DNA of 64,000 nucleotides from a virus. The notes under the pieces are model-generated. The model had not been told where the DNA came from, did no database searches, and was given only the letters and a program-made list of their open reading frames with translations. Location: positions 9,657-73,656 of the IMG/VR virus record IMGVR_UViG_3300004369_000009; one strand, written 5' to 3'. Made by a program: the position numbers and the translations under genes. Below are positions 21,201-63,269 of the stretch, piece by piece (positions within the stretch are counted from its first letter, which is position 1; every line of letters starts with the position of its first letter).

Positions 21201-24200
21201 ATATCCTTCGCCTTTTCGTATACCTCACGAGTCTGAGGTACCTCATTGGTAACATAATTGATGCTAGTACCCTGAAGGTATTTCTGTGCGGCTTCAATAG
21301 TCTTAGAGTTGCCGCCATAACGCATATCGTACATCCAAGAACGGAGTACGTGATATACGTCATCGATACACTGCTGATCTCCAACTGGATAGGTTCTGGT
21401 AACACCATTCAGGTTACCAGGGGAACCTGTGCTACCGATAGCACCAGTAACAATAGCGGTCAGCGATGTGATAGCAGCTGCTGTATCAGAACAGCGGTTT
21501 ACATAAGAAAGAGTTCTAGTAACCGTCGAGAGGCTATTTGTATCAACAGCAACCTCAACAATATTCATCAAAGCAGTAAATGCTGCGATGACATTAGCAC
21601 AGATAGGTAGACCAGTATCTTGAGTAATGGTCAGATCTCTATACTGAGTCAGGTTAGTGTATCCACCAACAGAAACAAGTTCATTTTGGAAACACTCAAT
21701 CGCAATATCTCTGGCTTGACGGAATGCGTAGATGGAATGATTTTCTTCACCAGCAACATGAGCACCCGTTATATACAGTTCGGCAGCATCATAGGTGAAG
21801 TCATTACCACCCATCGCAGTGTTCCAAGAAGTTACTTCCAGGACATTGATGATGTCATCGATACATGCCTGGTTGCCAGTTGGAACAGAGAAAGCAGTAG
21901 GAGTTGTCTTGGTGACACCAGACAGGGTGTCATTCTGAATAGCATCAGTGACGATGCCAAAGAGAGTATCAATAGTAGACTGTACGTTAGCACAATCAGC
22001 AGCACTATAAGCACCACCAGGAGCAGATTGATCGTGGGTAATTGTAGTATCAAATACCTGATCGAAATCATGGGTACCCAGTTTAGTATGGGTTCTGTTA
22101 GTGATGACCAGTTTGGCAATGTCTTTCGCATGGTTCATAATAGCGATAGACTTTGCTTCCTCACCATCAAGGTGAGGAGTACCAACATAAAGATTAGCAG
22201 CATCCCAAACTTGGTTGTTGCTACCATGCTGGACGTTAAAAGCAATTGCTCTCAGAACATCAGCAACGTCATCAATACAATCTTGGGGATCACCTGTTGG
22301 TGTGGTCAGTGTTGGATCAGCAGCCAACTCAACTTCATATGCCTCAGCAGCAATGAAATCGACGTTAGCAATAATCAGATCGTGGGCATCCATGTGTCTG
22401 GAGTCCACAATCTCATAAGGAATATTCGCCATCATTCTACCGACGGCGATTTCAGCAATAAATTGCTTATTCTTATAGATCAGATTACGAGCATCACCGA
22501 AGCGATCACCAACGCCAGACTGAGCAGAGTCTGGGCTAATAGTGAAGTCCTTAATCTGAGTTAGACCATGACTACCTTGAATAGTAATGGTCTCGTTACG
22601 CATTGCCTGAATGGCAAGATCTCTAGCTTGTTCAAAGACCTCTACCGATTCATCTTCCTCACCTACAACGTGAGCACCTTGAACATAATACTTGGCAGCA
22701 TCATACACCTGATCGTTACCACCATAGGCAAGGTTGTATGCCATTGCTTCCAAGAAGTCAATAGCATCATCAATACATGCCTGGTTTCCAGTTGGAATGC
22801 TGAACGTTGGGTTATTGAGAAGCATACGAGCAACTGCTTCTTGAGCAATCAGTTGCTTGTTAGCCAAGATCATAGAAGTACCATCACCGTTTCTATCTAC
22901 GGGAGGTACAGAGTTTGGTGTCTGCCAAGGAGCAGGTACAGTGATAGTTACTGTGCCAGAATCTGTGCTAGCGGAAGACAGAATGATTGTGAAGGTTCTG
23001 TGATCAGCACAATCATCAACAATGTAAGCACCATCTTGAGTAGCACCACTAAAGTTGAAAGCGTATGAGCTCTTAGCAAATACGCCATGACCCCTAGGAG
23101 CCACAACCGTCATTACATTGCCAACGCAAGTGTAAGAACCAGTTCTGGAAAAGCTTGTGTTAGTGCCAGCATTGTACTGAGACTTAACATAAGCATAGGA
23201 TTCCTCAGCAATAAAGTTAAGGTTGTTGTTGATCGTCTCAGCAGCATCTCTCTGCTTAGCAGACTCTTGGATGCTAGCACCAAACTCTACCTTGTCGAAC
23301 GCATAGGGAGAGTTCCTCAGCGACATCAAGGCATAGTTAGTAGCCGAGCAAACCTGCTGGTCACCACTAGGATCCAGAGCTGTAGCGATTCTTGAGCAAG
23401 AACCTCTCGTTACAAATTTCAGTGCGTAACCGTCAGCACGCTCAATACGATGAGTAATGTACTTACGACCGTTGAAATCGCCAAGGTTATCAAATACCGT
23501 AACGTTACCACTTCTAGTAACACTGTCTACGGCTCTCAGGATAAAGTAAACTTCATTTGTAGAAGAATTATATCTAGCAACACCAGCACCCAAGTTAGAT
23601 GGGCTGCCCAGATAAGCACCGAAGTCGGACTGGGTTTGAGCCAACGTACCATCTTGATACGTCGCAATATGGAAAGACTTATTGATGTGACCAGTGTTTC
23701 CAGCATCGTCAAAGACCATGCGTACGCCAACGCCCTTACCACCCACAGGACCCAAGGTCTTGAGGTTTGGCCAAAGAACGTTCATTACTGTTGGGTCCGT
23801 ATTAGAAACGGTAACAGTAATTTGATTAGCAGTTTGAGTATAGGTAGCGCTAGCACCAGAACCAAAGCTCAGTGCGGTATATGGCATACCATAGATATGA
23901 ACTTCCTGACCGACTTCATAGTCGTGCCCAACAAAGTTAATACCCTCAATAACTCTGGAAGCAGCAGTAACTTCCATGATGATGCCATTATACTCTTGCT
24001 GAGTGGCAACATCAGTAGTTACAAAAGCAATGTCAATAACGTTGAGTGCTTTTTCAAAGCGCTGATAACCAATACCTTCAGAAGTCAGAGGCAGAATTAC
24101 TGGAGCATCTTCACCAGCAATGTTCTTATTAGTAGCATCTGCCTGAGTATTAGCCAGTTTGAAATGGTGACTGTCTACTCTATAGATAAAGATCAGGGAG

Positions 24201-43324: not shown

Positions 43325-44848
43325 TTAGAATTCAATTACTACTTTGAGCTCTTCGTTCTGATCCGCCGATCTGGAAATCGGGTTCCTATTATCTATGTAG
43401 AGGATTTCTCCAGAGTTGATTTGAACCTCTCCGTTAGCATAACCCTCAACAAAAGAGAGACCAAGTTCATAAACAGAAACACCAATCTGAATCTGACTCT
43501 TAGGAACAGATGCTGTACCAAAAGTAGAGTCGGGAGTGGCAGTGATCAAATCAGATGAGGTAATTTCATAGTTACCAGAGAACTCAATGATGTTACCCGA
43601 AGTAACTCCATCAAATGAATCCTGGTAATACTTCAAAAGCTTAGTATTGGAATCATAGGAAACTACATATCCTTTTGCGAGTGTAGTTGCCTGTGAGATT
43701 GTAGATCCAGGTTGGAACGTTCCGTTAGGGGCGCCAGTTCCAGACTGAGGGAAGATCATGGCTTTTACACCAGATCTTGTGTTTTGAGAAGACACCGTTG
43801 TGGTGTTGTAGTCATATGGGTTAAGAACCAGACCGACTCTACGGAATGTAAGGTCAGTTGGGAAGTCAACAAACGCAGTAGAGGTTTCAAGTTTGGAAGC
43901 AAACATCAAACGATAAGATCCAAGTTCTCTAGCAGCATCAGAACCATGACCACCGTTAGGAGGAATAATGATATCCAAATTTGCGTTAGCACCAGTACCG
44001 ATGTTTGTAATCAAACCAACATCAATAGTGGCAAAACTATAGTTAGATCCAGACTGAGTAACGGTAACATTACTAATACTACCAGAAACAACAGTAATGG
44101 AACAATATGCTTGAGTTCCTCCATTGATTTCCCAATCACCACGAATGGGTACATTAGTGAATGTGCCGTTATTATAACCAGCACCAGCATTCTCAATAAC
44201 AATAGTATCAACTGAACCAGCACCAGCGGCAGCTTCTACCAGAGCATTGTCAAGGACGGGGATAAACTCAGAAGTAACGAACTTCAGAATGTTATCAGCG
44301 TCAATGGTGTACATGTACTTCCAACGATACTTATAGTCGGAAGAATCATTAGTTTCAATAACTGTGGTCGAGGTGCCAGTTGGCTCTACTAGCGAAGGAC
44401 GACCTTTGGGAAATTCGGGAGTCTGACCATTATAAAGACACTTGTAGACATTAAAGTCTGAGTTCATCACATAGAAGTTAGAGTCATACAAACGGGTCGC
44501 GCCATTTGCTGTCGTCTTTGCTGGTGAATAATCAGGTTTGTACATAGAGTATGTACGACCAGTACCACCAGTAGTTTCTGTTGGGTCAATCCAGTCAACC
44601 CTAGGAATGACGAGAGCGGTGTCAGAAATATCTACGCGCTTATATGCTACCGAATCAGAGTATACCTGTCGATGGTATGTAAATGAATCAATAGGCTCGT
44701 CTGTGGGAGGTGAATCTGAATTTCCTGCCCATGCCTTAGGTCTACCTACAAAGAGATAGACTCTATTAGCATCAGAGCCTGCACTGCCTAAGGTGTTTCG
44801 GAACGCCTCGGCAGCATAAATCCTAAATTTGTCGGTTACAAGAGCCAT
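43325..44848 (-). CDS. gp8: Baseplate wedge subunit gp8
   Basis: FYVMNSDFNVYKCLYN, YRWKYMYTI, SGEILYIDNR...QNEELKVVIEF. Confidence 0.9.
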   Translation of the reverse strand: MALVTDKFRIYAAEAFRNTLGSAGSDANRVYLFVGRPKAWAGNSDSPPTDEPIDSFTYHRQVYSDSVAYKRVDISDTALVIPRVDWIDPTETTGGTGRTYSMYKPDYSPAKTTANGATRLYDSNFYVMNSDFNVYKCLYNGQTPEFPKGRPSLVEPTGTSTTVIETNDSSDYKYRWKYMYTIDADNILKFVTSEFIPVLDNALVEAAAGAGSVDTIVIENAGAGYNNGTFTNVPIRGDWEINGGTQAYCSITVVSGSISNVTVTQSGSNYSFATIDVGLITNIGTGANANLDIIIPPNGGHGSDAARELGSYRLMFASKLETSTAFVDFPTDLTFRRVGLVLNPYDYNTTTVSSQNTRSGVKAMIFPQSGTGAPNGTFQPGSTISQATTLAKGYVVSYDSNTKLLKYYQDSFDGVTSGNIIEFSGNYEITSSDLITATPDSTFGTASVPKSQIQIGVSVYELGLSFVEGYANGEVQINSGEILYIDNRNPISRSADQNEELKVVIEF

Positions 44849-44943: not shown

Positions 44944-47900
44944 TTATGCGTAGAGTCTAACAATTGGACGGATCTGTAGTGTAGCGCTGGTTTCCTGAAG
45001 AGCTACAGTAGAGGTAATTGTAAAGGTTGCGTCACCAGTCTTGGTAACTTTATATACCCCATTCAAAGAACTATATGACAAAGTACCACCAGAACCAGGA
45101 ACTGTTCCGCCAGAAGTGAAGAAGATATATCTCTCCATTCCAGTTTCAAGGTTATGATCACTAGACATAGTTACAGAAATGGTGGTGCCGTTGGCGGTCC
45201 AAGTTCCATTTTCAATGTTAATATTGTGTCCAACACCTAGGCTTGGACCTGTACGCTTGTAACCTCTACCATTAGTTGTAACAACAAAAGTATTAGCGTT
45301 ATAATCAACTGTTCCGTAAAGAACTCTTTCTACACTCCAATTAGTACCATTCCAATAAGGAATCATTATTTCACCGTCACTTGGGAAACCTTCACCAGCA
45401 TCATATCCAAAGTCTTGGCAAGGAATAGTTTGTGCTGTATCTGTAATAGAAGAAGAAAGAATCGCGGTGTAAAGGAATCTACTATTACTAATGGTCCTAT
45501 CTCTTTGAGTTCTTTCAACAGCAACTGGGTGGAAAGTTTGTACAGTTGGAGCATTGACGTAATTAGATCCACCTTGAAGATCAATAACCTCAATGACTTT
45601 ACCACTACCTTGCTCAATGATAGTTCTAGCGCTAGCGCCAGTACCACCACCACCATTAAAGGAGAGGAATGGTGGATATTCATAATTGCCACCAGCATCA
45701 ATAATATTGACCTTAACTACTTTTCCACCAACAACAACGGCTTCAAAAGAAGCAACAGATGGTTGGAGACCAGTATATTCATAAGTTTCAATAGAACTTG
45801 AAGAAGCAATCTGAGCAAGAATACGATTTTCACCTTCGGAGTCAATTCTGAGAAGATCGCCAGGGTCAATACTGTTGTAAGTATCTTCAACTGTGATGTC
45901 TAGGTCAGAACCAGTGTAGATGAAGGTCAGACACTCGGCACCTGCTCGTGGTGCTTCAGTGAATTCAAGAATTGAACCATTCAGAACAAATGATACTTCT
46001 GGTTCCTGATAGACACCATTCATGAACATGATAATATTGTTCGCTGGGATAACGGCAGGAGAATCAGATTCCAGGGAGAATGGCTGATCATTCTTCTTAA
46101 GAATGAATGTTTTTCTCTCATTATCAAAGAATGGAGCAATAGGATCTAGATCTTTCAACTGACCAACATAGAAGCAGTAGAAATCCATGTTGCCCAGCGG
46201 GGCTTCAGTGAAATTGATGGTAGATGGAGTTCCTGTGTAACTGTAAGAAACACCAAGTTCCTGAATGTGGGAATTAAGAAATAGCAGGAATCTGTCGTTA
46301 CCTGGCAGAGTATATCCAGTACCACCAACTTTAGCGGGGTACGAAGTTGTAGTTCCGTCAAAGGTAACGGTCTCAACTTCAATTTGGAAACTGTTGATTA
46401 CAGTACCGCCAACATCAGCAGCATCAACACCAAGCATATCAGTGTTAAGGTAATTGCTACCTCCATTTACCAAAGCTACGTCGGTAACCGCACCTGTAAC
46501 TCTAGCAATTGGATTGGTAGCAGCAGTTGTTGGATTGCCACCAGTAAATGCCAGAGTAGGTGCTTGATTGTAATCCTTACCTGTTTGTTGAACTTCAAGA
46601 CGCTCGATAAATCTACCAACAGTGGCAGAAGCCAAAGCAGTTGTGGTAATAGTATCAGCAGGGTCGTTGATAATTTCAACAACAACATCATCGTAACCAT
46701 AACCACCGTAAGTAACATTGATTCCAGTAACTGCTCCACCAGAGATGGTAGCAGTAGCAGTAGCGTTAAAACCACTATTGGATTTGATCACTACAGTTGG
46801 AACATTGTTATAGCCAACGCCAGGTTGGGTTACTGCGATACTCTTGATGAAACCTTCAGAGGAAAGAACAGCAGAGATTGCGCCATCTGTAACAGCAGTA
46901 TATCCAGACTGAACAATAGTAGGAGCACCTTCATACCCATCACCACACTGACCAACAGTTCTAGTGAAGGTATTGAAGTTGCCCTGACCGATAACGGTGT
47001 AGGCAAAATCCATCAAAGTTTCAATCGTAGAGATTACATTTGTACAACCTCCAGAAACCGAAGTGATGCTAGGATCCTTGTACTGGCTTCTAGTGCTGAA
47101 GTTATACTGCGAATAGGTCTCATAAGTTTCATTGTTAATTGCCTTCTTGACCATCTGACGTGCTTCTTCAAACACGTATTGGGTCTCGGCTTCTTCACCC
47201 TGTACGTGACCACCATTGAAGTACATATCGAGGTTGTCCCACAGAACGTGGTTACCACCGAATGCTACGTTAACGCCAACGGCACGCAAGATGTCAACAG
47301 TGTCAGATTTACACTGTTCATCACCAATACCAGGAGAGTTGAATCCAGTAGGAGCAGTTCTAGTAAACGTAGAGAGAGAATCAGTGTCGATCGCAACTTC
47401 GATGATATTCATCAGAGTATCAATCGCAGCGGTTACGTTTGTACAACCACCAACGACATTAGTAATACTAGAGTCCGTAACCTGAGAAATGCCGTGGGAA
47501 CCGCGAACGGTAACTGCGGTATTATCAATTACTTCCTTAGCAATCTTAGTGGCTTCTCTATAAACGTACTTAGAGTGAATCTCTTCGCCATCCAGATGTG
47601 AGGTGCCTACGTAGTAAGCAGCGGCATCATAGATTTCGCTGTTGGAACCATACTTGACGTTGATAGAAAGCGCTTCCATAACATCAACAACGTCATCGAT
47701 ACAGTTGACATTGCCGTTTGGAACGGTAAAGGCAGCAGGTTCAGTTCTGGTGGCATGAGTCATCAGATCTGTTTGGATTGCCAATTCGATGATGTCGATC
47801 AAAGTGTTGACACCAGAGATGACGTTTGTACAACCACCAGATACGTTGGTGATTCCACTGTCGATCGTCTGGGTGTATCCATGAGAACCAGTGATACTAA

Positions 47901-50900
47901 TTGTCTGGTTATCGATAGCCAGTTCCATCAGTTCTTCAAGTCTGCCGATAGCAGCAAGAGTTTGTTGCTCTTCGCCATCAATATGGGTTGTGCCAACGTA
48001 ATAATTGGCGGCATCCCAGACTTGGTTGTTGGCACCATGGAGAACGTTAAATGCTACAGCATCTACGATATCCAGGAGGTCATCAATACAATCCTGAGAG
48101 TTGCCTGTTGGAGTTACGAATCCAGGGAAATCTACGGTGCTCATCAGGTGATAAGCTTCGTATGCTAGCAGGTTTTTGTTAGCGAGGATTGTGTTATATG
48201 CGTCAAAGTGTCTGTTGCTTTGAACCTCAAAAGGAATGTCGAGCAGCATACGCTCAACGGCTTCGTTAGCAATGAAGTTCTTATTGGTTGTAATCAAAGT
48301 AGAAGCATCGGCAAAACGATTTGCCTGAGGTGTGCCAAAACGATTCATCAAACCAACAGCAACATCAGCAATAAGTCTGGCGTTATTGTTAATCAATACA
48401 CGAGCATCGCCAAATCTGTCAGCGGTTACATTAGTAGCCGTATCGAGAACATTGGTAATTGTGATGTTACCAGTAGCTCCAGTGCCATTTCCAATTTTAT
48501 TTGTAAATGCTACATTATTGTATACGCCAGGAGTGTATCCACTACCCTGGTAGATACCATCTGTGGTATTCAGGGAAGTAATAACGTCTCCAAAGATATC
48601 CAGCTGGAAGTTGCCGCTGATATCTTGGCGTTGATAATACATGATAATACAGACCGAATCCTTAATCGGTGGCTCGGAGAAGGTGAGGGTGCTTCCACTT
48701 AGACTATACGAAACTGGGTTCTGTACAATACCGTTGATGGTTACCATCAACTGATTTTTGTTTAGAGGTGTTATCTCAGTATCTCTGAATCTCAACTGAT
48801 AATCAACAGTTTCATCATCAAAGGCAACGGTCAATTTGTGCTTAATGCCTGTGGAAACTCCCGTCAGTGGAACTGCGGTACCAGCAGTAGCATTGGCTTT
48901 GGTTGTTGCCAATTTGAGATTATCATCATCAACTCTGATGATGTAGTAATCAGTATTAGCATCCAAACCACCAATGGGAACAGAGTTGGCAATTTCAGGA
49001 TAATATCCTGGGTTGCGCTCTGGAACGCTGGATGGATTGTCAATACCACCCCATACAATCTCAGCAAGAGTGTCAATAGTATTCTTGACATCTGTACAAC
49101 CGTTAGTATCCAGAGTGATAGTAATATCAGTTACTGGGAGTTGGTTTACAATCGCCTGCTTAGCCAGATCTCTGGCATATTGAATAGCACCGATTGTTTC
49201 CTCTTCTTCGCCACCAATATAATATACACTATTGTTAGGTACAGTTCTGGTAAGACTACCAAATGGACCATTAGCACCAGAATCAACAGCATCCGTAAGG
49301 ATTGTCATGAGGCTAGTGATACTACTAGCGACATTCTGACAGGAAGCTACATAACCACCTGTCTTTTCAGTTCTATTCTCTACAAGGTGCGAAAGTGGTG
49401 CGGTGATGGCAGCAGTTACAATGTCCATCAGAGTAGTGATGGCAGAAACTTGATCCGCACACTTGACGTATGAAGGATCATCAGCGGGGGCAGTGTCATC
49501 TGTAATCGTCAGATCAAAGACTTGACCAGACATGTCACCGACTGGCTTATTCTGAATTACCAGAATCGCAATATCTCTTGCTTGCTCAAAAGCATAGATC
49601 GATTCAGTTTCTTCGCCAAGGATGTGAGTTCCAGTTACATAGTAGTTCGCAGCATCCCAGATTTCGTCGTTTCCACCACGAGACATATTCTCAGCAAGTG
49701 CTTCGAGAACATCTACGATGTCATCTTCGCAATTAACTCTACCGTTTGGTACAGAGAATGTTGGGAAGTTGGACAGCATTCTGTCTACAGCAGTTACCGC
49801 AATCTGAGTCTTATTAGAGAGAATGAGATTTCTGGCATCAGCATGTCTATCACTAATGTAACCAGCAGGATCTTTAGTGATAGTGTTATCGAATACTTGA
49901 GTTTGGCTGGTATACTGTGGATTGATTGGATAATTTTGCATGGCTTGAATTGCCATGTCTCTAGCGTGGTTGAATACCTCAATAGTTTGGGTTTCTTCCC
50001 CAGATACGTGTGCTCCTGTGATATACAGGTTAGCAGCATCATATACTTCGCTGTTTCCGCCGAATGACAGGTTATAAGCCAAAGCCTCAAGGATATCGAT
50101 AACATCATCGATACAATCTTGATTATTACCAGTAGGAACAGTAAATGCGATATTATTTGGATCAGCAAGCATTCTACCGACTGCTTCTTCAGCAATCAGT
50201 ACCTTGTTATCGAGGATGCTCTGTCTAGCATTGGCATAGCGATTGCCAATGGTACCAACACCACCAATGTATTCTTGTACAGCATCCCAGGTAAATGCGT
50301 TTCCACCATAACGGAGGTCATTAACCCATGCTACGACAACCAATCTAAGGTCACGAGCACATATAGTTCTATCGTAATCTGGTTTGGATCCATCGGTTAG
50401 AGCTGGATAATTTGCTTCTAGCCATACAATAGACTGATCAATAATATAGTCAATGTTCTTAAGAATTAGGTCTCTAGCATCTTGATATCTGTCAGCAGGG
50501 GCAGAGTAATTTGCTTTCTGACCAGTAATAAATCCATGGTTAGTGAGAGCAAGAGTGTCACTAGCATCTAGAACTACAGCTGGATCTGTGCCATCAAATG
50601 TGTAAGTTTTAGATTCGATTTTATCTAGTTTGTTTACAATGGCACTAAGAATTCTCTGGACGTCCAGAAGTTGCTTACCTTGAACAAGAACATTTGTAGG
50701 CACTGAAGACGTGTAGTCTGGCTTGCCCATAAAGTAGTTCTGAATCCTAGAAAGCTTACCAGCATTGGAAGCAGAGGGTTTTGGCGTAAAGAATGTAGTT
50801 CCATTGAAGGACTGGAATTCATTACCAAACCTTTGAGCATACCAGTTGTTTGGATCTGGGTTTGATGGGTTATTAAAGGAAGCAGCATTGTATCTCTTAA

Positions 50901-53900
50901 ATGCGGTTTGAGAGATAACCTGTGTACCAAGAACCTTAAATCCAGCAGGGTGAGCTGTTGTCTTAAATTGATTCTTCCACTCACGTACGTTGATTGGAGA
51001 ACTTACAACGTAAGAGAACTCTTGGAATCTATCTGAGTCATATAGACGCTGTTCATTAAGATCAAGAATACCAGTGGTTCTCTTAAACTGAGCTGTAGCA
51101 GTAGCGATTGGAGAAACTTGGAACGTAGCGTCTGCTTTATCAAAATCATGAATCTCACCGAATGCTTTAGTCTCAATACCAAAGATTGGTTGATTAAGTT
51201 CAAACTCCCCAGACTGAACTTCAACTGACAAAATTCTACCAAATGGATCCCATGCTTTAACAATACCGACAGCATTAAACGATGCTGTAGATGTACCCTG
51301 ATAAACTGTCTCACCAACAGCAAACGATGCAGGAGTCAAAGAAACATCAATTGAATCTCCAAGATCTGTAGTTGTGAGTTGGAATGTAGCGGTACCACCG
51401 CTACCAACAGTAGCGGGTCCAGTAAGTGTGACAGCAAGTCCACTAACTGCGTTAGCCAACGTAGTAGCAAGCCACATTTGGTTAGAACCAAGACCATTAG
51501 TTAGGCTTGGAGCAATAGCATAGTAAATTCTATTGGTAAGCAAAGGTGGTGGTAGTCTACCATCAATTTCACGTAGCTCTACTTTAGTCCCAGTTGGGAT
51601 CTTAGTATTGTATGGGAAGTTGAGAGTATTGTTAGATGTAAGAGGTACAAATTGGTGAGTAACTCTAGCCAGAACATCAGGTGTAGATGAGAAACCCTTA
51701 CCTGGATTAATGACATCAATGCTTTGGATAACTTCATTATCTACGTTAACTTTCACTTCAAAACCAGATCCACCACCACCAACAAACTCAATAGTTGGTG
51801 TGGAGACGAAGGAATATCCACCATTAGTTACAGTGAAGAAATCTACAATTTGAGTTCTAACCAACTGGAGGTTATATGTTGTATTGACCTCTGGCTTGAG
51901 AGTTCTATCGTGAGAGTAGTTATAGGTAATGTTGTCACCACCAAGATTGATGATCTTACCAAGGTCACTAGACTTCAGAAGAATAGAAGCACCTCTACCA
52001 AGTTTCTGGTTAATAGCAATAATTGGAGCATTCTGGAACTTAGATCCAGCATTTTCAATGATAATCCTAGTTACTGATTCATCTACAATTTCTGCTCTCA
52101 ATACTGCATCAATACCAGTACCACCAGAAATAGCAACTTCTGGAGCAGACAAATATCCAGAACCAGAACTTGTTAGAATAATCTCGTCAATAGATGCGTT
52201 GATTGTAGTAGAAGTTTCTGCTGGTCTTACAAATTCCAGAGAATCAACTCTAAGAACAAAATCATCAGTTCCATCTACGCCGCCAGGAATTTGAGCGCCA
52301 GAAATCGTAATAAGGTCACCCAATGAATATGTACTGCCAACATTAGTTACTACAACAGAAATAATGTCCTGGGTAGAAGCATCGATAGTTATAGTAAATT
52401 CAACTCCAAAGCCACCAGTAGGAGCAACAGATTTTTGAGTTACGCCAGTATGAACTCCTGGAGTAAAGTTGGCAGAACTATTTTGGTTTTGAACTTCAGC
52501 AGTCTTAACACCACCGTAGTAAGGATTATCAATATAAATTGTTGGAGCCTTTCTATAATTTGATCCGCCATTGTTAATAGCGATATTCGCAATAGTTCCG
52601 AGCTCTGGACCACTAGGGGGTACAACCGCAGCAACTTGTGCGTGAGTTCCAGATACAGCAATAACTTCTGCTTGGTTAGGACCACTAAAGACTTTATTTC
52701 TCTGTGCGTTGCTAGCATTAAACATTAGGAATCCACGATTAGTAGCCCCTACCAGATTGTTTCTGAGTGGTTGGACTCTAAGAGTGGATGTATTGGGATT
52801 CCAGGAAATTACCTTACCACGAGCACTATCTCCAGATAGATCCTTCTCCGAAGTAATTACATCACCTTGAGAGAATGTGCCAAATACCTTATCTACAGTG
52901 AGGTCAACAAAATCTGGAAGACTACAATATACAGAAGGTGGATTAGATGGTTCATATCCAATTCCATTTTCAAGAATAGCAACGTCCTCCAAGAATCCAG
53001 AAATGGTTGCTGTGGCAGCAGCACCATTACCAGACCTTGTTACCCCAAGGAACTTAGGTAGAGTAGAATAATTTCTACCTTTATCACCAATATTAATAGA
53101 CGCAATACCGCCGCTAGGATAAATCGACGTTGTGGAGTAAATTACACCATTAGATTTCGAGTATCCACTATCTGGCTCATTTGGCAATATAAACGAAACT
53201 GTATTTTGAGTAACGGAAGTGACTGTATTGGATCCAATATAAGGATCTTGGATTACACTAAAATAACTACCACTTAGATTACCGTTGATATCAAAATAGA
53301 ACAACGTTCCAGGAATATCTTTAATGAGAACTTGAATGCCTAATTGTTGACCTGTTACTGGATCATTTTCTACATCTGTGATATTTTTGTAAGTAAAGAC
53401 ATTAGTGTTTTCCTTATCAAAGGTAAACTCTAGTCTTCTATTTTGATTGGAAACATCAGAAGTATTAAATGTATAAGCATGACCATTAATTAGATTCAAG
53501 TTTGGCTCTTGGCAGTAAATAACCGCCTGAGTTACGATTGCTTCATTTGGAATCGAAGATCCTGTTGGGATATTAAACTGGAATCTTCTCTGAGTTGTAG
53601 CACCAGTTACTACAAAGGTTCCATCATATTCAGATGGTTGACAACCAGTAACAACAACTTGATCTCCAGCTTTGAGGTTGTGGGAAGCACTAGATCTTAA
53701 AGTATATTCAATCAGTACATTATTTGGAGTAAGGGTAAATCCATTACCATTACCAATGTTTAGATTGTTGGCTGTCAGTTGCTCCCCAGCTCTATATCCA
53801 GAACCAGCTTTGGTTAGAACAACTGAACTGACTTCTTGATTGCTGTTGACAGTAATCGTAAATTCGGCACCCTCTCCAGAATCTTGACCATTGAACAGTG

Positions 53901-56900
53901 GGACATTAAAGTAAACGCCTTCAGTGTATCCACTGCCAGCAAAAATAACCCAATCCTGATCGATCAGGGAGCCAGTCTTAAGAACGGTACCAATATCAAC
54001 ACTAAATCCATTTCCACCGCCACCACCAATCTGTGCGTCATTTATCGTAAGAACATCTCCATCAAGATATCCTTTTCCTTGATTGGTAATAGTAATCGCA
54101 GTAACAGCACCACCAGTAACGGTGATATTAGCAATGGCACCAGAACCAGAACCACCACTAAGGCGTCTGCCATTATAAGTGCCGTTTAGATAATTTTCAC
54201 CACCAGTAATTACCAGTTCACCTTGCTGGATTCTACCAGGACTACTTTGGTAATAATCAGTAGCATCAAAGTAACTGAAGTTATATTTGTTATTAATGAT
54301 TTTGACATCAATATCCTTATTGATGTAATTGTCAGCAATACTTACATCAACAAATTCATCTGGTTTGATGAAATGTGGTTCCTCTGTGGTAATAGTAGCC
54401 GTGATAACATCAGTGTCGTTATTAACAGAGTATACTAATCCACTAACAACTTCTCCAGTGATTTTACCAACACGAGCAGAAATTCCACTGCCACCCGTGT
54501 TAGTTTCGTCGAAGATGAGTCGATCATTAACTTTATAGTCAAAGCCAGCACCTTCAATCAAGTATTGATCAATACCAGAGGAGAAATATCTGTTTGTAGC
54601 AGAAACATAAAGGGAATCTGTCTTACCGCCTTTAATTGTTGGGAAGTAATCATAGTAACCAATACCAACATCATCAAATACCAAGTATACTGGTTCGGTG
54701 CCACCATTAGTAAAGTTCTCCAAAATAATTGGAGTGGTAGCATCTTCCAGTGCTAGCAAGAATTCTTCTGGATCGCCAAGATCTTTTCTGCGAACGACAG
54801 ATTCATCAACTGCGATATATGGAGCCTTATAACGAACAGCATCTTCAGTAAATAGACGCTGAAGACCATTACCAGTCCAGTTGATACTATCTGCTTGAGA
54901 GTAGAAGTCTGGACCAATAAAATAAGGGAATTTAGGATTACCTGTTGTACCATCAATGGCACAGAAGTATGCGTATACACCACCAGGATACTCTGGAGTT
55001 ACGCAGAAACGACCGTTGTAGCGATCAAGGTCACCAGACCCTTCAATATATTCGTAGTCTTCAATGTAGGTACCCATACGGTCAGTCAGACCCTGTACAA
55101 GCGCATCTCTGCTGGTTCTCAGCCTATAGCTGGAAACCATCTGCTTATACTGGTTAAATGGGTTTTTATTCTCCCTATCAGCGTATCCATAAGGACCATA
55201 GATGGGATGACCATCAAAAGCCCAACCAAGGATAGGCGAGTGCCTAGTTGGATTAAGTTCTGCGTTATTTCCGTCGCTAACGTTATCTTTTAGTAAGAAG
55301 CGAAGCTTCTTGGGGTTGTACATATATCCATATTCACCACCATATACCGCAAAGTTAGATCCTCGAATGGAAACTCCATTAGCAGCATCAGCAACTTTAT
55401 ATGGAGACATCTGAGAACTTGTCAGACCGAATTCTTCTGGAGTTGCGGCTTTGTTATAGTTAAGGACAGGCAGTTCTACTTGGAAAGAAGCACCTGTACC
55501 AGGATAGACAATATCAACAAATGTCTTACCAGCGGTATATCCAATACCACCGTTTGTAACTCTAATAGCAGTAACTTGCTGAGAATTAGAATCAATCTCA
55601 GCAAAAGCCACAGCACCTACGCCATCACCAGTAATGATAACGTCAGGAGGACCATAGTAGTTTTTACCACCATATGTCAGAATGATAGAAACAATTCTTC
55701 CATTAACAATGGAAGGATATGCTACAGCACCTGTACCAGAAATTAGAGTGATATTTGGTCTTTCATCGTAATTGGATCCAGGGTTTGTAATAGTAATACC
55801 ATCAGATTCCAATCCGCCACGAACAACGGCTTCAGCAGTAGCACCACTTCCACCACCACCACTCAGAGTTACAGTTGGTACACCAGTATATCCAGAACCC
55901 TCAGCAGTGACACTAATAGCAGTAACCACGCCAGAAGTAATAGTGGCAGTAGCAGCTGCTTGTACTGTAGGATTACCACCGCTAATAGAAACAGTAGGAG
56001 CAGTGGTATAATTTGAACCACCATTTGTCACGTTAATCGAAAATACTCTACCAGAAACAGATACTGTAGCTTCAGCAGAAACACCTTCAAGTTCCCACAG
56101 GCAAGAACCATCTACAGTAAGGCTACCGTCAACAGCAGTGGGTTCAGTTCCACGTTCTGCGGATTTACCACTACCAAGGTTTTTATATCTGTTACCAACG
56201 CTATTGCGAACTCTCTGGTTAATGAAATAGTTAGTTCCTGGTTTCCAAAGTGGTTCAAATTCTACAATAGGTGGATTGGTGATATCATAACCATCACCAG
56301 GGTTAAGTACGCTAATTTCACTAATACCACCATAAAGTCGGAAATCTTCCGATTTATATGAAAAAAATGGTACACCATTTACACCAATACCAATTTGACC
56401 CACTGGAGTTGGAGTCTTAGTTGATTTTGTAAGGGTAGTTCTAGGAATACGTTTTAGGTAACGTTGGTTACCAGGATCTAGATCGATACCTTGGAAAAAT
56501 GGTCCAATTTTATGGCTAGGCAAACCGCTAGAAGCAATGATAGCATGGTCATCACTTCTGTAGGTATTTTGGATATCAGCAGGAATATTTTTAACAATGT
56601 TGTTGATGCTGGTGTCAGTAGAGCTGGATTTTGCGAATTCCCTAGTAATCAGAAAATCACCATTAACACCAGCAATAGGAATGACATTTAAGCGAACTGT
56701 AAACTGAGTATCGTTCGCAGTACCAATAACATTGAAAGTTTGATTATATACGTCTTCTGGAGCATTGAGAACAACAACTGTGTCATCACGACGTAATCCG
56801 TGAGGCTTTGAAGTTGTAATCAAAGCTTCTACTCTTCCCTGAGAGTCTGGGGAAGATAATTCAATTTTTGTACCAGTAAGAAGCTTCTTAACGTTGTAAA

Positions 56901-58281
56901 TAAACGAACCCCAGATTGGCTCTAGAGAATCAAAACCAGGAGCAGCAGGAGTAGTGACTTTAGAGTCTTGTACGTAGTATTTGCCGCCATTAGTGAGGTT
57001 GACACCTCTAGTGCCACCAAATACAGCAATCTCAATTCTACTTTGATCTACATTAGAATATCCGTAAATACCAAACGCAGAAATGACTTCAGAACCAGAT
57101 AAGTGTGGACGAAGTTCAGTATTCTGCCTAGCACGAGTTACTCCAAGAAATTGAGTTACAGTTTTATCTTCATACTCAAAAATTTCACTGTTAATACGGA
57201 AACTTCCGTTAGTCTCTGGCCAACCGAGTGTAGAATCAACAGTAACGAATCCATGGTCAAGATTTGAACTAAGATCTTCGGAAAGAACCGTTTTATATGG
57301 TGTGGTGAATTCACCTTTACCATTTTCAGTATCTACATCCAATTCGTAGATTTTACCGTCTTCGGTAAAAACTTCTACAACAGTTTTGACATAAATTCGG
57401 GCATCCTTTACATTAGAGTCATTGAGATCAGCATCTTGGTACAAAACTTCCCCTGTAAGTTCTACGGGGTTACCAGAGATGGCTTTGGCACGAATAATTT
57501 CTCTGGTGCTATAGTAAGCATCAGATGGTTTGAAAATTCTATCTTTAGGGTATAGAATTGTAGATTCTACACCAAAAAGAACCCTCATCAGATATTTGAA
57601 GGATCTGGAGGTTCCTTTAGCCGCATAAAAGTCTTTCAGTCGTTTTGTGACTGAAGAATCCCTAATACCCTCGGCAAACTTATTAGGGAACGATTCAGAG
57701 AACTGAGTTCTGAATCTTTCAAGAATAAACAGCGCAAAGAAGTTATTAAGGTTGATTACCTCAGATTGGAAAGCATGTTCTGCTGGTTCGGACTCAGCAA
57801 ACGTATATTCCTTGATTAAACCAATATTTGTCGTCGCGTGGAAACCACGAACACACCCTCTGAACTGAGTGTTAGTTTTTTCTCTGTAGTATATAATTTC
57901 TTCGTCAATAAGGATTAAACCCTCAGAAGGGAAGTCCTTAGTATTCTGTACGTCAATAATGCCAGCATCAACCGACACTGAGCCTGCAGTTACTGTAGAT
58001 TCGACAAGATCGTTGAGATTGTCGATATTATAGTAGTCATCAAAGTTCCCAATGATGTCCAGGGGATTACCCTTCAGTTCTTGGCTCCTATAGTAATACT
58101 TTAGGAACTGAATGAAGTCAGGATAATCTTCTCTGATAAATTGAGGTAAAAATTCCTCAACTCTATCAGATATTCTGTCTTTAACATCAGGTGAGACTGT
58201 AGCGTCAATGGGAGAGACTCCAACCGATGTGGAGGGAGTCTGCCAAGACGCTACGCGCCAAGATGACCTTTCAATTGCCAT
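44944..58281 (-). CDS. gp7: Baseplate wedge initiator gp7 (4445 aa) with a YHYH-like domain and six phycobiliprotein-like helical domains
   Basis: [35 protein letters not shown]...HPAGF; position between gp6 and gp8. Confidence 0.9.
46987..48420 (-). repeat. Three nested helical domains in gp7 (cluster 2)
   Basis: CIDD, CIDD and CKSD motifs, plus three GGCTNV closing helices. Confidence 0.85.
49039..50493 (-). repeat. Three nested helical domains in gp7 (cluster 1)
   Basis: CARD, CIDD and CEDD motifs; closing helices CADQV, CQNV and CTDV. Confidence 0.85.
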
Positions 58282-58287
58282 TAGGGT

Positions 58288-60141
58288 TTAACTATAGCTG
58301 GACTCTGGGATAATACCTGTACCTGCGGTATTGGAACCGCTCGCAATCTCATCATCAATTACATTTACCACTAGGTTATCTATACCCAATGTCAAATAGG
58401 TTTCTCGGAGTGCTACGAGATCATTTGACTCAGGTACGACCGAAAACTGGAGAATATTTTGATTACTACCGACAACTTCATCAATGATCAAATCGTTGAT
58501 AGTGATTTCTCCTCTTTCATAATCAACACTTCCCCAATTACCACCAATATACTGGGTAGCACCATTTTCGGTAATGTAGAAGAGCCTTACAGTACCGAGA
58601 CCATCATCATTTAGGTAATATGTAAAATTGCCACCATCCACTCTCTTAAAACCATTAGAGGTGAAACTTGGAGACTCCAATTGTGCGTTGATTCTATTAC
58701 CAAAGCAAATAGTATAGTTAAAACGCTGGTTCAGGGATACGGTAACATTCTTTCGCATTCTGATGCGAGTGATATTTGATGTAACCGACTTTTCAGCATC
58801 GTCAATGATTTTCTGTAATTTTGAATACTTAAATTTGCCACCAAACTTGTTAAACTCCTTAGTTTGGTTAAGAGACTCCAGAGTCGTGAAAATGACCTGT
58901 TTGAGCTCCTCCTGGGAGCGTCTGGTGACATTTGGGTTAAAGTATACGAAAGAAGTTAAATCAATATAGACTACAGATGGATCTATAATCTTTGGCTCGA
59001 CTGCTCCTACAGAATAGTTGCGGATTTTCTTAAGAACTGCCTCTTTTTCGGAAATTGACAGTCTGTCAGCATTTTTGGGTTTAATGGCAATCATAACTTT
59101 GCCATATTCGGGAGGATCTGCTTGCTCTCCTCCGAATGCGACAATTGATTGGACATTTGGGTAAATTTGAGGAATAATCGACTCATAATCTTTAGTAGTT
59201 ACCGCTCTACCGAAACTAGAGTAGAATTTGGGTGCGGCATACTTGATAGAAGTCACAGATTCGGCTTCTGCGCCACCATCAGGAGCAGATTCGAGTGTCA
59301 GAGTGATTCCAGAGGTGATTGGGTTGTTAGACGAGTCCTTAATTGTGCCAGCGAACGTAAAATCGTCCAATCCGTTAGCACCAGAACCACTAGAAAGCGA
59401 ATAAGTCGCTTCAATGACATCACCATTCAAAAGTTTCTCTCCGATGATGCCATCACCGAAGATAAGTTCAAATCTTCTGTACTCAGACTCTTCTAAAAAG
59501 AAGTTTTTGCTGCTCTTATCGACAGCAGTAATATCAGTAGCCAAAAGATAGGCGTCAGTAACAGTTCCGCGAGTTACTTCAATCTTTAGGGTTGAAGTAT
59601 CGGCTTTTTCATTTCCAAGGATGAATCTTTGACGATCAGAAGTGTTTCTAACAAAAGTATCCTTAATGAAGATGCCTTCATAGGCAACAACATCATTAAA
59701 AGTCGCAATACCGTTCAGAGTATTGACAGAAACGATCAAATCTTTGGGAATTGAGAAAATATAGTTCGTATTTTCCTCACCAACGAAGCTTGCGAAGATT
59801 CCAGCGTTGATTTGGACCGCTTGAGGGTAAGGAAATGGAGTTTGGATCTCAACTTTGAAGGTAGCACGCGCAGATCTGTAACTTCTTGGCGTATAACCGA
59901 TCAATTTAGCCAATTTTACGACATTTTCGCGCAAAATTGCGCTGTCAAGGAAATTTTCGTTGACAATGAGGTTAGAACTGACCGCCGAATAGTAAGTATT
60001 GTAGGCGAGAACGTCTAAAAGGACCGAAAGTGACGATCCTTCAAAGTCATAATCCGAAAATTCGTCTTGACCAGCAAGATATGCCTTAAGTTGGGCTTTA
60101 ATCTCGTTAAATTCTAACGAGTTGACCTGGGTAAGTGCCAT
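58288..60141 (-). CDS. gp6: Baseplate wedge subunit gp6
   Basis: FSDYDFEGS.LS.LLD.LAYNTYY, ENFLDSA, RAVT..DY. Confidence 0.95.
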   Translation of the reverse strand: MALTQVNSLEFNEIKAQLKAYLAGQDEFSDYDFEGSSLSVLLDVLAYNTYYSAVSSNLIVNENFLDSAILRENVVKLAKLIGYTPRSYRSARATFKVEIQTPFPYPQAVQINAGIFASFVGEENTNYIFSIPKDLIVSVNTLNGIATFNDVVAYEGIFIKDTFVRNTSDRQRFILGNEKADTSTLKIEVTRGTVTDAYLLATDITAVDKSSKNFFLEESEYRRFELIFGDGIIGEKLLNGDVIEATYSLSSGSGANGLDDFTFAGTIKDSSNNPITSGITLTLESAPDGGAEAESVTSIKYAAPKFYSSFGRAVTTKDYESIIPQIYPNVQSIVAFGGEQADPPEYGKVMIAIKPKNADRLSISEKEAVLKKIRNYSVGAVEPKIIDPSVVYIDLTSFVYFNPNVTRRSQEELKQVIFTTLESLNQTKEFNKFGGKFKYSKLQKIIDDAEKSVTSNITRIRMRKNVTVSLNQRFNYTICFGNRINAQLESPSFTSNGFKRVDGGNFTYYLNDDGLGTVRLFYITENGATQYIGGNWGSVDYERGEITINDLIIDEVVGSNQNILQFSVVPESNDLVALRETYLTLGIDNLVVNVIDDEIASGSNTAGTGIIPESSYS

Positions 60142-62007: not shown

Positions 62008-62040
62008 GCCCTTTGAGTTCGCGGTTTTTACGCGATTTTT

Positions 62041-62902: not shown

Positions 62903-62964
62903 TGGCGTTCGTTCGAGGGGGCGAGAGCAAGACTTTATAGATTAGGCTTGCGGGTCCCTTTTAG

Positions 62965-62995: not shown

Positions 62996-63004
62996 TGTGA
63001 TTCT

Positions 63005-63244: not shown

Positions 63245-63269
63245 GGTCTGTCGTTTGTGTGTTGTGTGT

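What the first reader, a model, noticed from the sequence alone, without database searches (positions are those of the whole stretch)
46987..50493. Six more phycobiliprotein-like domains in baseplate gp7, one with a literal CARD...GG chromophore motif
Seen: two clusters of three domains. One reads [38 protein letters not shown] (Cys codon 50361-50359). This is in exact register with the recalled phycocyanin alpha motif [22 protein letters not shown] (CARD, L16, G19, G20). The other first-Cys motifs are CIDD (three times), CEDD and CKSD, so the Cys and the fourth-position Asp are invariant while the middle varies. All six also have the second Cys in the closing helix, and five of six keep the Asp39-like residue. 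Inference: 20 of 20 Cys retained across ten diverged copies in two Cys-poor proteins points to selection on these residues.
Basis: partly seen in the sequence, partly recalled or inferred. Interest (0 to 1): 0.9.

Follow-up and report, generated by a model that had tools for sequence, protein, structure and literature searches.

The report
Phycobiliprotein-derived domains in cyanophage baseplate protein
A giant baseplate protein of a marine cyanobacterial virus carries six domains that are true relatives of its host's light-harvesting pigment proteins and keep their pigment-attachment residues, so it can now be tested whether the virus particle itself carries pigment, which has not been shown.

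Summary
Observation confirmed. The 4445-aa gp7-like ORF (44944-58281, minus strand) holds six copies of a ~150-aa helical domain, nested inside one another, not in simple tandem. Four more lie in the 3633-aa ORF at 15218-26119.

The domains are real phycobiliprotein (PBP) homologues:
- The AlphaFold models match PBP beta chains best (Z 15.7-17, rmsd 2.1-2.6 Å).
- A profile of the ten window copies finds PBPs in the PDB (best E 0.0015).
- hhalign against host PBPs gives 95% probability.
- The two cysteines align with beta-Cys82 and beta-Cys153.

In 1311 copies from 150 related giant proteins the first Cys is kept in 98.8%, within a C-x-R-D motif (Arg 92%, Asp 99.6%). Here only copy 1 (CARD) has the Arg.

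All named matches among 50,697 phage records are cyanophages. In 21 phage genomes the domain and the phage T-type bilin lyase CpeT occur in exactly the same 17.

Bilin attachment is inferred, not shown. My ten literature searches found no paper describing this. This scan has noted the same domains in at least 75 other genomes.

The parts
44944..58281 (-). gp7-like giant baseplate wedge protein, 4445 aa, host of the six domains
   Evidence: ORF. It lies between a phrog_219 gp6-like gene and a phrog_438 gp8-like gene. phrog_2885 'baseplate wedge subunit' covers its N-terminal, middle and C-terminal parts (E 2.8e-209, 8.3e-210, 2.4e-62). PF23786 Baseplate_wedge scores 28.4 bits against a cut-off of 27.
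50251..50484 (-). Copy 1, N-terminal half (residues 2600-2677; helices A, B, E and F'). It has the canonical C-A-R-D motif, with Cys2641 at 50359-50361.
   Evidence: HMM positions 1-75, E 1.4e-6, and not part of the model. CARD is kept in 5 of 5 collinear orthologues.
49855..50235 (-). Copy 2, main part (residues 2683-2809), inserted into copy 1. Motif CIDD, Cys2723 at 50113-50115. It lacks its closing helix at this position.
   Evidence: HMM positions 1-126, E 1.3e-57.
49396..49842 (-). Copy 3, complete (residues 2814-2962), inserted into copy 2. Motif CEDD, Cys2851 at 49729-49731. Second Cys2941 at 49459-49461.
   Evidence: HMM positions 1-146, E 2e-55. In the AF2 model of the cluster, residues 213-366 superpose on PBP beta chains at Z 17, rmsd 2.1-2.2 Å, 137-138 residues.
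49270..49344 (-). Closing helix assigned to copy 2 (residues 2980-3004), with Cys2981 at 49339-49341
   Evidence: HMM positions 124-148, which complement copy 2's 1-126, but the match is weak (E 3.2). Predicted as a helix (model 386-407). The assignment is inferred.
49033..49215 (-). Copy 1, C-terminal half (residues 3023-3083; helices G and H), with Cys3062 at 49096-49098
   Evidence: HMM positions 76-146, E 6.8e-8, exactly complementing 1-75 of the N-terminal half. Orthologue L043 has the same two halves split by only one inserted domain.
48421..49032 (-). Spacer between the two clusters (residues 3084-3287), not PBP-like
   Evidence: No significant HMM match: one stretch at 3257-3289 with E 1e+02. 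phrog_2885 and phrog_10330 match inside it.
48235..48411 (-). Two orphan A-B helix hairpins (residues 3291-3315 and 3324-3349) that precede cluster 2. They are the likely N-terminal parts of copies 6 and 5.
   Evidence: Both match HMM positions 1-25, weakly (E 1.1e+02 and 0.27). Copies 5 and 6 start at HMM position 22 and lack these helices. The pairing is inferred. Earlier scan note e1-6202301 proposed the same parse.
47752..48207 (-). Copy 4, complete (residues 3359-3510). Motif CIDD, Cys3398 at 48088-48090. Second Cys3484 at 47830-47832.
   Evidence: HMM positions 1-151, E 7.8e-74. AF2 model pLDDT 80.5, pTM 0.80. Best fold matches are PBPs.
47365..47751 (-). Copy 5 without its A-B hairpin (residues 3511-3639). 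Motif CIDD, Cys3527 at 47701-47703. Second Cys3613 at 47443-47445.
   Evidence: HMM positions 22-151, E 1e-61.
46966..47364 (-). Copy 6 without its A-B hairpin (residues 3640-3772). Motif CKSD, Cys3657 at 47311-47313. Second Cys3746 at 47044-47046.
   Evidence: HMM positions 22-151, E 2.3e-61.
21020..22897 (-). Four further copies (all CIDD) in the 3633-aa fibre-like ORF 15218-26119
   Evidence: HMM matches at E 3.3e-45, 2.4e-48, 7.4e-41 and 5.7e-15. Motifs. Pfam PF00502 touches the first copy at 15.2 bits, E 7.6e-4, below the cut-off.
58288..60141 (-). gp6-like baseplate wedge gene (context)
   Evidence: phrog_219, E 5.7e-182.
43325..44848 (-). gp8-like baseplate wedge gene (context)
   Evidence: phrog_438, E 1.6e-164.

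Best explanation
The six units are copies of a globin-type domain derived from a phycobiliprotein beta subunit. The domain lacks the N-terminal X-Y helices. It has been multiplied by insertion of one copy into another, inside the baseplate wedge protein gp7 of a T4-like marine cyanophage.

Shown:
- homology to PBPs;
- both Cys in register with the two bilin-attachment sites of beta subunits;
- near-invariance of Cys and Asp across the family;
- restriction to cyanophages among the named phage records;
- strict co-occurrence with the phage T-type lyase gene cpeT in the 21 genomes tested.

Inferred:
- While gp7 is made in the infected cell, bilins from the host (or, in some phages, from the phage's own reductases) bind in the helix-E pocket.
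- They become thioether-linked to the Cys82-equivalent, either autocatalytically, as in other bilin-binding globins, or through host lyases.
- They are also linked to the Cys153-equivalent, with phage CpeT as the lyase.
- The assembled virion would then carry bilins on its baseplate and fibres.

Most speculative: the chromophores make adsorption light-dependent.

In this window, copy 1 (CARD) is the best candidate for the first site. The five copies with Asp or Ser in place of Arg may bind differently or only at the second site.
For: Fold:
- The copy 4 model (pLDDT 80.5) was searched with Foldseek against the PDB. Of 41 listed rows, 40 are PBPs and 1 is a 'bacterial fluorescent protein' (best E 1.9e-4, TM 0.70).
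- VIA-align against 48,161 chains puts phycoerythrin beta first (Z 15.7, rmsd 2.6 Å, 145 residues). Eight of the top nine are PBPs or ApcE, and other globins score Z 9-12.
- Copy 3 scores Z 17 at rmsd 2.1 Å.

Sequence:
- A profile of the ten window copies searched against 177,635 PDB sequences gave 25 hits at E <= 10. Of these, 21 are named PBPs (best E 0.0015), with Cys on beta-Cys82 and Asp on Asp85.
- hhalign against 10 host PBPs gives 82% probability, E 1e-5.
- With a 453-row profile it gives 95.4%, E 1.8e-8, over 125 columns, and the second Cys falls on CpcB Cys153.

Conservation in 1311 copies from 150 proteins:
- Cys 1267 of 1283; Arg 91.8%; Asp 99.6%.
- Cys makes up 0.47% of residues outside the domains.
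- The Asp39-equivalent and the second Cys go together: 102/25/2/153, odds ratio 312. The coupling also holds within the Arg type alone: 65/23/1/149.

Distribution:
- Cyanophages only among the named records and in BFVD.
- A motif scan of 185,579 species genomes gave 21 loci, all on MAG or bin contigs and all in giant ORFs carrying the domain.

Link to CpeT:
- The domain and CpeT are present in the same 17 of 21 genomes and absent from the same 4 (Fisher p 1.7e-4).
- The bilin reductase control shows no association (p 0.57).
- In S-PM2, cpeT lies 1.45 kb upstream of a domain-bearing fibre gene. In S-RSM4, S-CAM1 and Syn1 it lies within about 3 kb of one.
- The complete close relative G002 (87% identical in the cluster-1 region; 13 domain matches) has cpeT and psbA.

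Literature:
- C-x-R-D is the PBP chromophore motif, and globins that carry it bind bilins without lyases (PMC10151467, passages).
- T-type lyases serve beta-Cys153 (PMC10452541, passages).
- The role of phage cpeT is 'unresolved' (PMC3037559, passages).
Against: - There is no direct evidence of a chromophore.
- Five of the six copies here have Asp or Ser where all 10 host PBPs have Arg84.
- Orthologues L039 and L040 have lost the first Cys of copies 2 and 3.
- Pfam PF00502 stays below its cut-off on this genome (none at E <= 1; 15.2 against 22.2 bits).
- The X-Y helices are absent: alignments start at PBP residue 27-36.
- These phages encode only a T-type lyase, and I identified no phage lyase for the Cys82 site.
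- The bilin-binding globins tested by Rockwell et al. were photoinactive, which argues against a light switch.
- P-SSM2 and S-SSM7 carry a bilin reductase but no domain, so the phage bilin-synthesis genes are not explained by this.
- The co-occurrence and co-variation counts are not corrected for relatedness. Eight of the 21 genomes were already known to hold the domain, and the S-ShM2 CpeT match is marginal (23 bits summed against 21).
- Both models rest on shallow alignments (10 and 11 rows). The nesting of copies 1 and 2 was not tested by the fold search.
Confidence: 0.55

Rival explanations
1. Chromophore-free structural module. A captured PBP fold is used only as a stable helical building block or oligomerisation unit in the baseplate and fibres. 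The conserved Cys, Arg and Asp serve folding or packing.
For: - The domain sits in structural proteins and is multiplied up to about 30 times per protein.
- Copies tolerate loss of the Arg (5 of 6 here) and, in L039 and L040, loss of the first Cys.
- The X-Y helices and every other phycobilisome context are absent.
- No paper found in my searches reports coloured virions.
Against: - In PBPs the C-x-R-D residues line the bilin pocket and not an interface (PMC10151467). Keeping them at 92-99.6% in 1311 copies is hard to explain by packing alone.
- It does not explain why the Asp39-equivalent and the Cys153-equivalent are kept or lost together.
- It does not explain why the domain and cpeT occupy the same 17 of 21 genomes.
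Confidence: 0.28
2. The domain binds a ligand other than a bilin, for example haem or another tetrapyrrole as in other globins, or a component of the host surface. The Cys is used for that ligand.
For: - Haem-binding globin sensors are the next-best fold matches (Z 9-12).
- The Arg-to-Asp change in the copies here suggests an altered pocket.
- Baseplate and fibre proteins are the usual receptor binders.
Against: - PBPs outrank haem globins in every search.
- The motif kept is the bilin motif, and the co-occurring enzyme is a bilin lyase.
- I did not look for a proximal-His equivalent.
Confidence: 0.08
3. The two cysteines form a disulfide or a metal or redox site that stabilises an extracellular virion protein.
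For: - The virion is extracellular in oxic sea water.
- In the Asp-type copies, 30 of the 31 that cover the column keep the second Cys as well.
Against: - Of the 457 Arg-type copies that cover the second-Cys column, 293 have another residue there, yet the first Cys is kept in 98.8%.
- The two Cys align with beta-82 and beta-153, which sit in separate chromophore sites far apart in PBPs (recalled geometry). The models superpose on PBPs at rmsd 2.1-2.6 Å.
- I could not measure the distance between them, because the tools give no coordinates.
Confidence: 0.07
4. There is no real relationship: a chance resemblance of a helical repeat to PBPs.
For: - Pfam finds nothing.
- phmmer with the whole 1169-aa stretch finds no PBP.
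- Helical models often reach Z of about 14 against unrelated chains (note printed).
Against: - Three independent methods agree on the same family and the same register.
- Pfam PF00502 itself touches the copies: E 7.6e-4 here, and above its cut-off when summed in S-PM2 (30.3 bits).
Confidence: 0.02

Closest known systems
Phycobiliprotein beta subunits (CpcB, CpeB/MpeB, cryptophyte beta chains; Pfam PF00502)
   Same: - Globin-like fold from helix A to helix H (Z 15.7-17, rmsd 2.1-2.6 Å).
- The A-B helix pattern and the P-x-G loop.
- A Cys and an Asp in the register of Cys82 and Asp85.
- A Gly at the position of G100.
- A second Cys in the register of Cys153, together with the Asp39-equivalent.
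   Different: - No X-Y helices, so no alpha-beta monomer or disc is expected.
- Embedded, nested and multiplied inside giant virion proteins.
- 16-23% identity, below the Pfam threshold.
- Five of the six copies here have Asp or Ser in place of Arg84.
- Chromophore binding is untested.
Bilin-binding globins outside phycobilisomes (BBAGs and photoglobins; Rockwell et al. 2023, PMC10151467, passages read)
   Same: - PBP relatives that are not antenna proteins.
- Some carry C-x-R-D and attach bilins without a lyase.
- Photoglobins use a variant motif (C-x-Q-D), which shows that the Arg is not indispensable.
- Solved photocobilin structures match the copy 4 model at Z 10.8-11.2.
   Different: - BBAGs are small cellular proteins clustered with bilin-synthesis genes in heterotrophic bacteria and some cyanobacteria.
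- The phage domains match PBP beta chains better.
- They lie in virion proteins.
- No tree relating the two groups was built here.
ApcE (phycobilisome core-membrane linker), PBP-like domain
   Same: A PBP domain built into a large multidomain protein. Solved ApcE chains match the model at Z 11.8-13.2. From recall, not tested here: its PBP domain is interrupted by a loop insertion and attaches its bilin autocatalytically.
   Different: - ApcE has one PBP domain.
- It sits in the phycobilisome core.
- It keeps the contacts to allophycocyanin.
T4 gp7 baseplate wedge protein and cyanophage giant gp7 (phrog_2885)
   Same: - Gene order gp6-gp7-gp8.
- The PHROG and Pfam baseplate-wedge matches.
   Different: - The PBP-like clusters are an extra, variable module.
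- phrog_2885 matches the 1169-aa stretch only in the spacer (E 5.1e-12).
- No phage of non-cyanobacterial hosts matched.

Membership tests
Phycobiliproteins (PF00502) | Globin-like PBP fold, helices A-H | tested here: met
   PBP beta chains are the top matches for two independent models: Z 15.7 (145 residues, rmsd 2.6 Å) and Z 17 (138 residues, rmsd 2.1-2.2 Å).
Phycobiliproteins (PF00502) | Score above Pfam's gathering threshold | tested here: not met
   No PF00502 match at E <= 1 for the 1169-aa stretch. The best match in the whole record is 15.2 bits against a cut-off of 22.2, in the other ORF. Remote homology is nevertheless supported by hhalign (82% and 95.4%).
Phycobiliproteins (PF00502) | C-x-R-D chromophore motif at the Cys82 position | tested here: inconclusive
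   Cys and Asp are present in 6 of 6 copies. The Arg is present in only 1 of 6 (copy 1, CARD). Family-wide the Arg is at 91.8%. All 10 host PBPs have C82, R84 and D85.
Phycobiliproteins (PF00502) | Second attachment Cys of beta subunits (beta-153/155), with Asp39 | tested here: met
   The second Cys is present 6 times. It aligns with CpcB Cys153 in the 453-row hhalign. The Asp39-equivalent is present in 5 of 6.
Phycobiliproteins (PF00502) | N-terminal X-Y helices that form the alpha-beta monomer | tested here: not met
   Sequence and structure alignments begin at PBP residue 27-36. Nothing precedes helix A in the repeat unit.
Phycobiliproteins (PF00502) | Covalently bound bilin | not testable with these tools
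   This needs spectroscopy or mass spectrometry of the recombinant domain or of virions.
Bilin-binding globins in the wide sense (PBPs, BBAGs, photoglobins) | Globin fold with a Cys-x-x-Asp bilin motif on helix E | tested here: met
   The motif definition is taken from PMC10151467.
T4-type gp7 baseplate wedge proteins | Position between gp6 and gp8, and profile matches to baseplate wedge families | tested here: met

The most novel reading that the evidence does not exclude
The virion is a biliprotein. Bilins attached to the PBP-derived domains of gp7 and the fibres, partly by the phage's own CpeT acting as a virion-maturation lyase, absorb light and gate baseplate or fibre deployment. This would be the long-sought cause of light-dependent adsorption of cyanomyoviruses, and the first photoreceptor carried by a virus particle.

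In the few phages whose phenotype I could read about:
- P-HM1, P-HM2 and S-PM2 adsorb only in the light and carry 6, 5 and 9 domain matches.
- P-SSM2 and P-SSP7 adsorb in the dark and carry none.
Probability: 0.2. Interest if true: 0.97.

Novelty: new variant of a known kind. Interest (0 to 1): 0.85.

Why it matters
- **An unresolved gene.** Sullivan et al. 2010 call the role of the phage-encoded T-type bilin lyase cpeT 'unresolved' and that of the phage bilin-synthesis genes 'a mystery' (PMC3037559).
- **An unexplained phenotype.** Light-dependent adsorption of cyanophages does not depend on host photosynthesis. [quoted passage not shown]
- **A testable link.** A family of PBP-derived domains that keeps both attachment sites, sits in the host-contacting parts of the virion, and occurs in the same genomes as cpeT gives both questions a concrete molecular hypothesis.
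- **Family size.** The family is large: 1070 representative proteins at E <= 1e-3.
- **Evolution.** It is a clear case of a host photosynthesis protein turned into a virion part, with unusual domain-in-domain nesting.
- **If apo.** Even if the domains prove to carry no chromophore, this corrects the annotation of hundreds of 'hypothetical' or 'structural' cyanophage proteins.

Tried and rejected
- **Direct family and sequence searches on the 1169-aa stretch.** Pfam hmmscan gave only a chance TTI1 match (E 0.095). phmmer against PDB sequences gave 6 weak hits and no PBP. Single-sequence methods do not see the relationship; profiles and folds do.
- **Megablast against phages.** No match. No close isolate is in the collection.
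- **The search for homologous proteins with A1.** It returned only 29 short unnamed fragments.
- **The listing of cluster members.** It gave no informative names: the only name any source gave was 'hypothetical protein', for 2 of the 10 clusters.
- **Fold search with the 496-residue cluster model.** It tested only copy 3 (model residues 93-366 fill the list). The nesting of copies 1 and 2 and the pairing of the orphan hairpins in cluster 2 therefore rest on complementary HMM coordinates and on the orthologue L043, not on a structure.
- **Idea that the phage bilin reductases serve these domains.** Rejected as a general rule. The reductase is present in 5 of 17 domain-bearing genomes and in 2 of 4 genomes without the domain (p 0.57).
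- **Idea that the domain resides in cellular genomes.** All 21 motif hits in species genomes are on MAG or bin contigs. Two show gp6-gp7 or gp7-gp8 order. I read these as binned phage contigs but did not prove it for each one.
- **cpeT in the window's own record.** None was found, but the record is only 40% complete.
- **Papers not seen.** Gasper et al. 2017 on phage CpeT is not held. What I say about it is recalled. Jia et al. 2010 was not read; I know it only through Liu et al. 2019.
- **Supplements.** None were opened. Table S of PMC3037559 (which virion-protein cluster shares the distribution of cpeT) and Table S5 of PMC10665884 could bear on the co-occurrence claim.
- **'Not in print'.** This rests on searches, and on passages read.

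Full report
**What is there.** The window is part of a 73,656-base IMG/VR virus record that CheckV rates 40% complete. Bases 44944-58281 on the minus strand form one ORF of 4445 aa. It lies between a gp6-like gene (phrog_219, E 5.7e-182) and a gp8-like gene (phrog_438, E 1.6e-164). Its N-terminal, middle and C-terminal parts match phrog_2885 'baseplate wedge subunit', and PF23786 scores just over its cut-off. Calling it gp7 is therefore justified.

These 12 cysteines are half of the 24 in the protein.

**Anatomy.** An HMM built from five of the copies shows that the units are not simple tandem repeats.

In cluster 1:
- Residues 2600-2677 match model positions 1-75, and residues 3023-3083 match positions 76-146.
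- Residues 2683-2809 match 1-126, and residues 2980-3004 match 124-148 (weakly).
- Residues 2814-2962 form a complete copy.

The simplest reading is that copy 3 is inserted into copy 2, which is inserted into copy 1. The orthologue L043 supports this: its two halves of copy 1 are split by only one inserted domain.

In cluster 2, two orphan A-B hairpins (3291-3315 and 3324-3349) precede one complete copy (3359-3510). Two copies that lack the hairpin follow (3511-3639 and 3640-3772). An earlier scan note (e1-6202301) proposed the same parse.

The AF2 model of cluster 1 (pLDDT 72.1, pTM 0.45) predicts all the expected helices. The fold search tested only copy 3, so the nesting remains an inference.

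Four further copies lie in the 3633-aa ORF at 15218-26119.

**Homology to phycobiliproteins.** Single-sequence searches see nothing. Profiles and folds do.

- *Fold, copy 4.* The AF2 model from the ten window copies has pLDDT 80.5 and pTM 0.80. Foldseek lists 41 PDB rows. Forty are phycoerythrins, phycocyanins or phycobilisome chains, and one is a 'bacterial fluorescent protein' (best E 1.9e-4).
- *Fold, independent aligner.* VIA-align over 48,161 chains puts a phycoerythrin beta chain first (Z 15.7, rmsd 2.6 Å, 145 residues). Allophycocyanins and ApcE follow. Haem-binding globin sensors come lower, at Z 9-12.
- *Fold, copy 3.* It matches PBP beta chains at Z 17 and rmsd 2.1 Å.
- *Profile against PDB sequences.* The ten-copy profile gives 25 hits at E <= 10. 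Twenty-one are named PBPs, the best at E 0.0015.
- *Profile against host PBPs.* I took ten real PBP genes from a marine Synechococcus MAG. hhalign gives 82% probability (E 1e-5) with the ten-copy profile. It gives 95.4% (E 1.8e-8, 125 columns, PBP residues 36-171) with a 453-row profile.

All alignments agree on the register:
- the first Cys on beta-Cys82;
- the Asp on Asp85;
- the Gly-Gly on G100;
- the leading-helix Asp on Asp39;
- the second Cys on CpcB Cys153.

The X-Y helices of PBPs have no counterpart.

**Family-wide pattern.** The profile finds 1070 representative proteins at E <= 1e-3 among 1.84 billion. The best 150 are mostly 1000-7000 aa long and hold 1311 copies, up to 29 in one protein. 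The conserved positions:

| Position | Residue | Frequency |
|---|---|---|
| First Cys | Cys | 1267 of 1283 |
| Cys +2 | Arg | 91.8% |
| Cys +3 | Asp | 99.6% |
| Cys +5 | Gly | 76% |

The family consensus is therefore K-C-x-R-D-[VI]-G, the PBP chromophore motif as defined in PMC10151467. Outside the domains Cys makes up 0.47% of residues.

The window's CIDD-type copies belong to a minority type: Asp at the Arg position occurs in 4.3% of copies, usually together with Asn instead of Asp eleven residues on. Only copy 1 (CARD) is of the main type.

The second Cys is present in 42% of the copies that cover its column. It goes with the Asp39-equivalent: 102 copies have both, 25 have only the Asp, 2 have only the Cys and 153 have neither. 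Within the Arg type alone the counts are 65/23/1/149. These counts are not corrected for relatedness.

Against strict selection on every copy, orthologues L039 and L040 have lost the first Cys of copies 2 and 3. They keep CARD in copy 1 and all three closing-helix Cys.

**Distribution.** tblastn against 50,697 phage records:

| Query | Records matched | Cyanophage records |
|---|---|---|
| Copy 4 | 339 | 339 |
| A C-x-R-D-type copy | 72 | 71 (plus 1 uncultured marine virus) |
| Cluster 1 | 329 | 329 |

- In BFVD, all 17 matches at E <= 0.001 that carry a name are Synechococcus phages or uncultured Caudovirales. Named phages of other hosts appear only as non-matches with TM <= 0.3.
- A motif scan of one genome from each of 185,579 species gave 21 loci. 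All are on MAG or bin contigs, and all lie in giant ORFs with 1-9 copies of the domain. Two show gp6-gp7 or gp7-gp8 gene order.

**Link to the phage bilin lyase.** I searched 21 phage genomes. They were:
- S-PM2, P-HM2, P-SSM2, P-SSP7 and the complete close relative G002;
- eleven consecutive RefSeq cyanomyoviruses;
- P-SSM4, Syn9, S-RSM4, S-CAM1 and S-CAM8.

Eight of these were already known to hold the domain.

- Seventeen have the domain.
- The four without it (P-SSM2, P-SSP7, S-SM2, S-SSM7) were confirmed negative with a second query.
- Pfam CpeT is present in exactly the same 17 and absent from the same 4. Fisher p is 1.7e-4. It is 8.4e-4 if the marginal S-ShM2 match is dropped.
- The bilin reductase family shows no association (7 of 21 genomes; p 0.57).
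- In S-PM2, cpeT lies 1.45 kb upstream of a domain-bearing 'short tail fiber' gene, on the same strand.
- In S-RSM4, S-CAM1 and Syn1, the long-form cpeT lies within about 3 kb of such an ORF (coordinates).
- G002 has cpeT and psbA but no reductase or haem oxygenase.
- The window's own incomplete record has no cpeT.

T-type lyases act on beta-Cys153 (PMC10452541). [quoted passage not shown] Sullivan et al. call the role of phage cpeT unresolved (PMC3037559). From recall only: Gasper et al. 2017 found that phage CpeT binds PEB tightly but does not pass it to the host beta subunit.

**Light-dependent adsorption.** Liu et al. 2019 (passages) report the following:
- P-HM1 and P-HM2 do not adsorb in the dark.
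- P-SSM2 adsorbs in the dark, though less than in the light.
- P-SSP7 adsorbs in the dark.
- S-PM2 adsorption needs light independently of photosynthesis.
- No mechanism is known.

Domain matches number 6, 5, 0, 0 and 9 in these phages, in that order. This is suggestive, but it is anecdotal: there are five phages, and two of them belong to one species.

**Verdict.**
- The homology and the retention of the attachment residues are firmly established.
- Covalent bilin binding is the best explanation of the conservation pattern and the cpeT co-occurrence, but it is not shown (about 0.55).
- A light-sensing role is possible (about 0.2).
- None of my ten literature searches found a paper describing these domains.
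- This scan has noted the same thing in at least 75 other genomes. All eight follow-up reports shown to me reached the same partial verdict.

Noticed in passing
window 54952-55341 (gp7 residues 981-1110): The same giant protein holds a YHYH domain (PF14240, E 2.2e-27, 96.7 bits). Its role in a baseplate protein is unknown to me.
   Followed up: no
L039 and L040 (IMG/VR orthologues, about 63% identical), alignment A3 columns about 175-180 and 312-316: These orthologues have replaced the first Cys of copy 2 (by Ala) and the whole C-E-D-D motif of copy 3. They keep CARD in copy 1 and all three closing-helix Cys. The second site is therefore retained where the first is lost.
   Followed up: partly
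S-PM2 NC_006820.1 166219-166551 (W04): Pfam's own Phycobilisome model PF00502 exceeds its cut-off (30.3 bits summed against 22.2) inside the S-PM2 'short tail fiber' ORF. The relationship is thus detectable with standard tools in at least one well-studied phage.
   Followed up: partly
L106 = S-PM2 NC_006820.1 165928-177267: In this RefSeq record about 16 tRNA features are annotated at coordinates inside the 3779-aa short tail fibre CDS, and they share its locus tag. This looks like an annotation or coordinate fault in the record.
   Followed up: no
Syn1 19950-26288; S-RSM4 169999-177038; S-CAM1 69570-75478; S-PM2 163952-177267: CpeT comes in two forms. The four genomes with a long form (183-230 aa ORFs, 107-144 bits) have it next to a domain-bearing fibre gene. 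The thirteen with a short form (134-224 aa ORFs, split or weak matches) have it about 14-20 kb into the genome (86 kb in G002), away from those genes.
   Followed up: partly
Protein-representative hits P0033 (5984 aa) and P0034 (6382 aa): These giant proteins consist almost wholly of 27-29 C-x-R-D-type copies. Their best isolate-phage match is only 34% identical, so they may come from a phage lineage without a cultured member. I could not trace their contigs.
   Followed up: partly
window 62001-64000: G+C rises to 0.517 from about 0.40-0.44 in the neighbouring stretches. The content of this stretch was not examined.
   Followed up: no
PMC3037559, table of cyanophage-exclusive genes: The class of genes present in 12 of 16 cyanomyovirus genomes contains cpeT, psbD and '1 virion structural protein'. 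Whether that structural protein cluster is the domain-bearing one could be checked in the paper's supplement, which I could not open.
   Followed up: no
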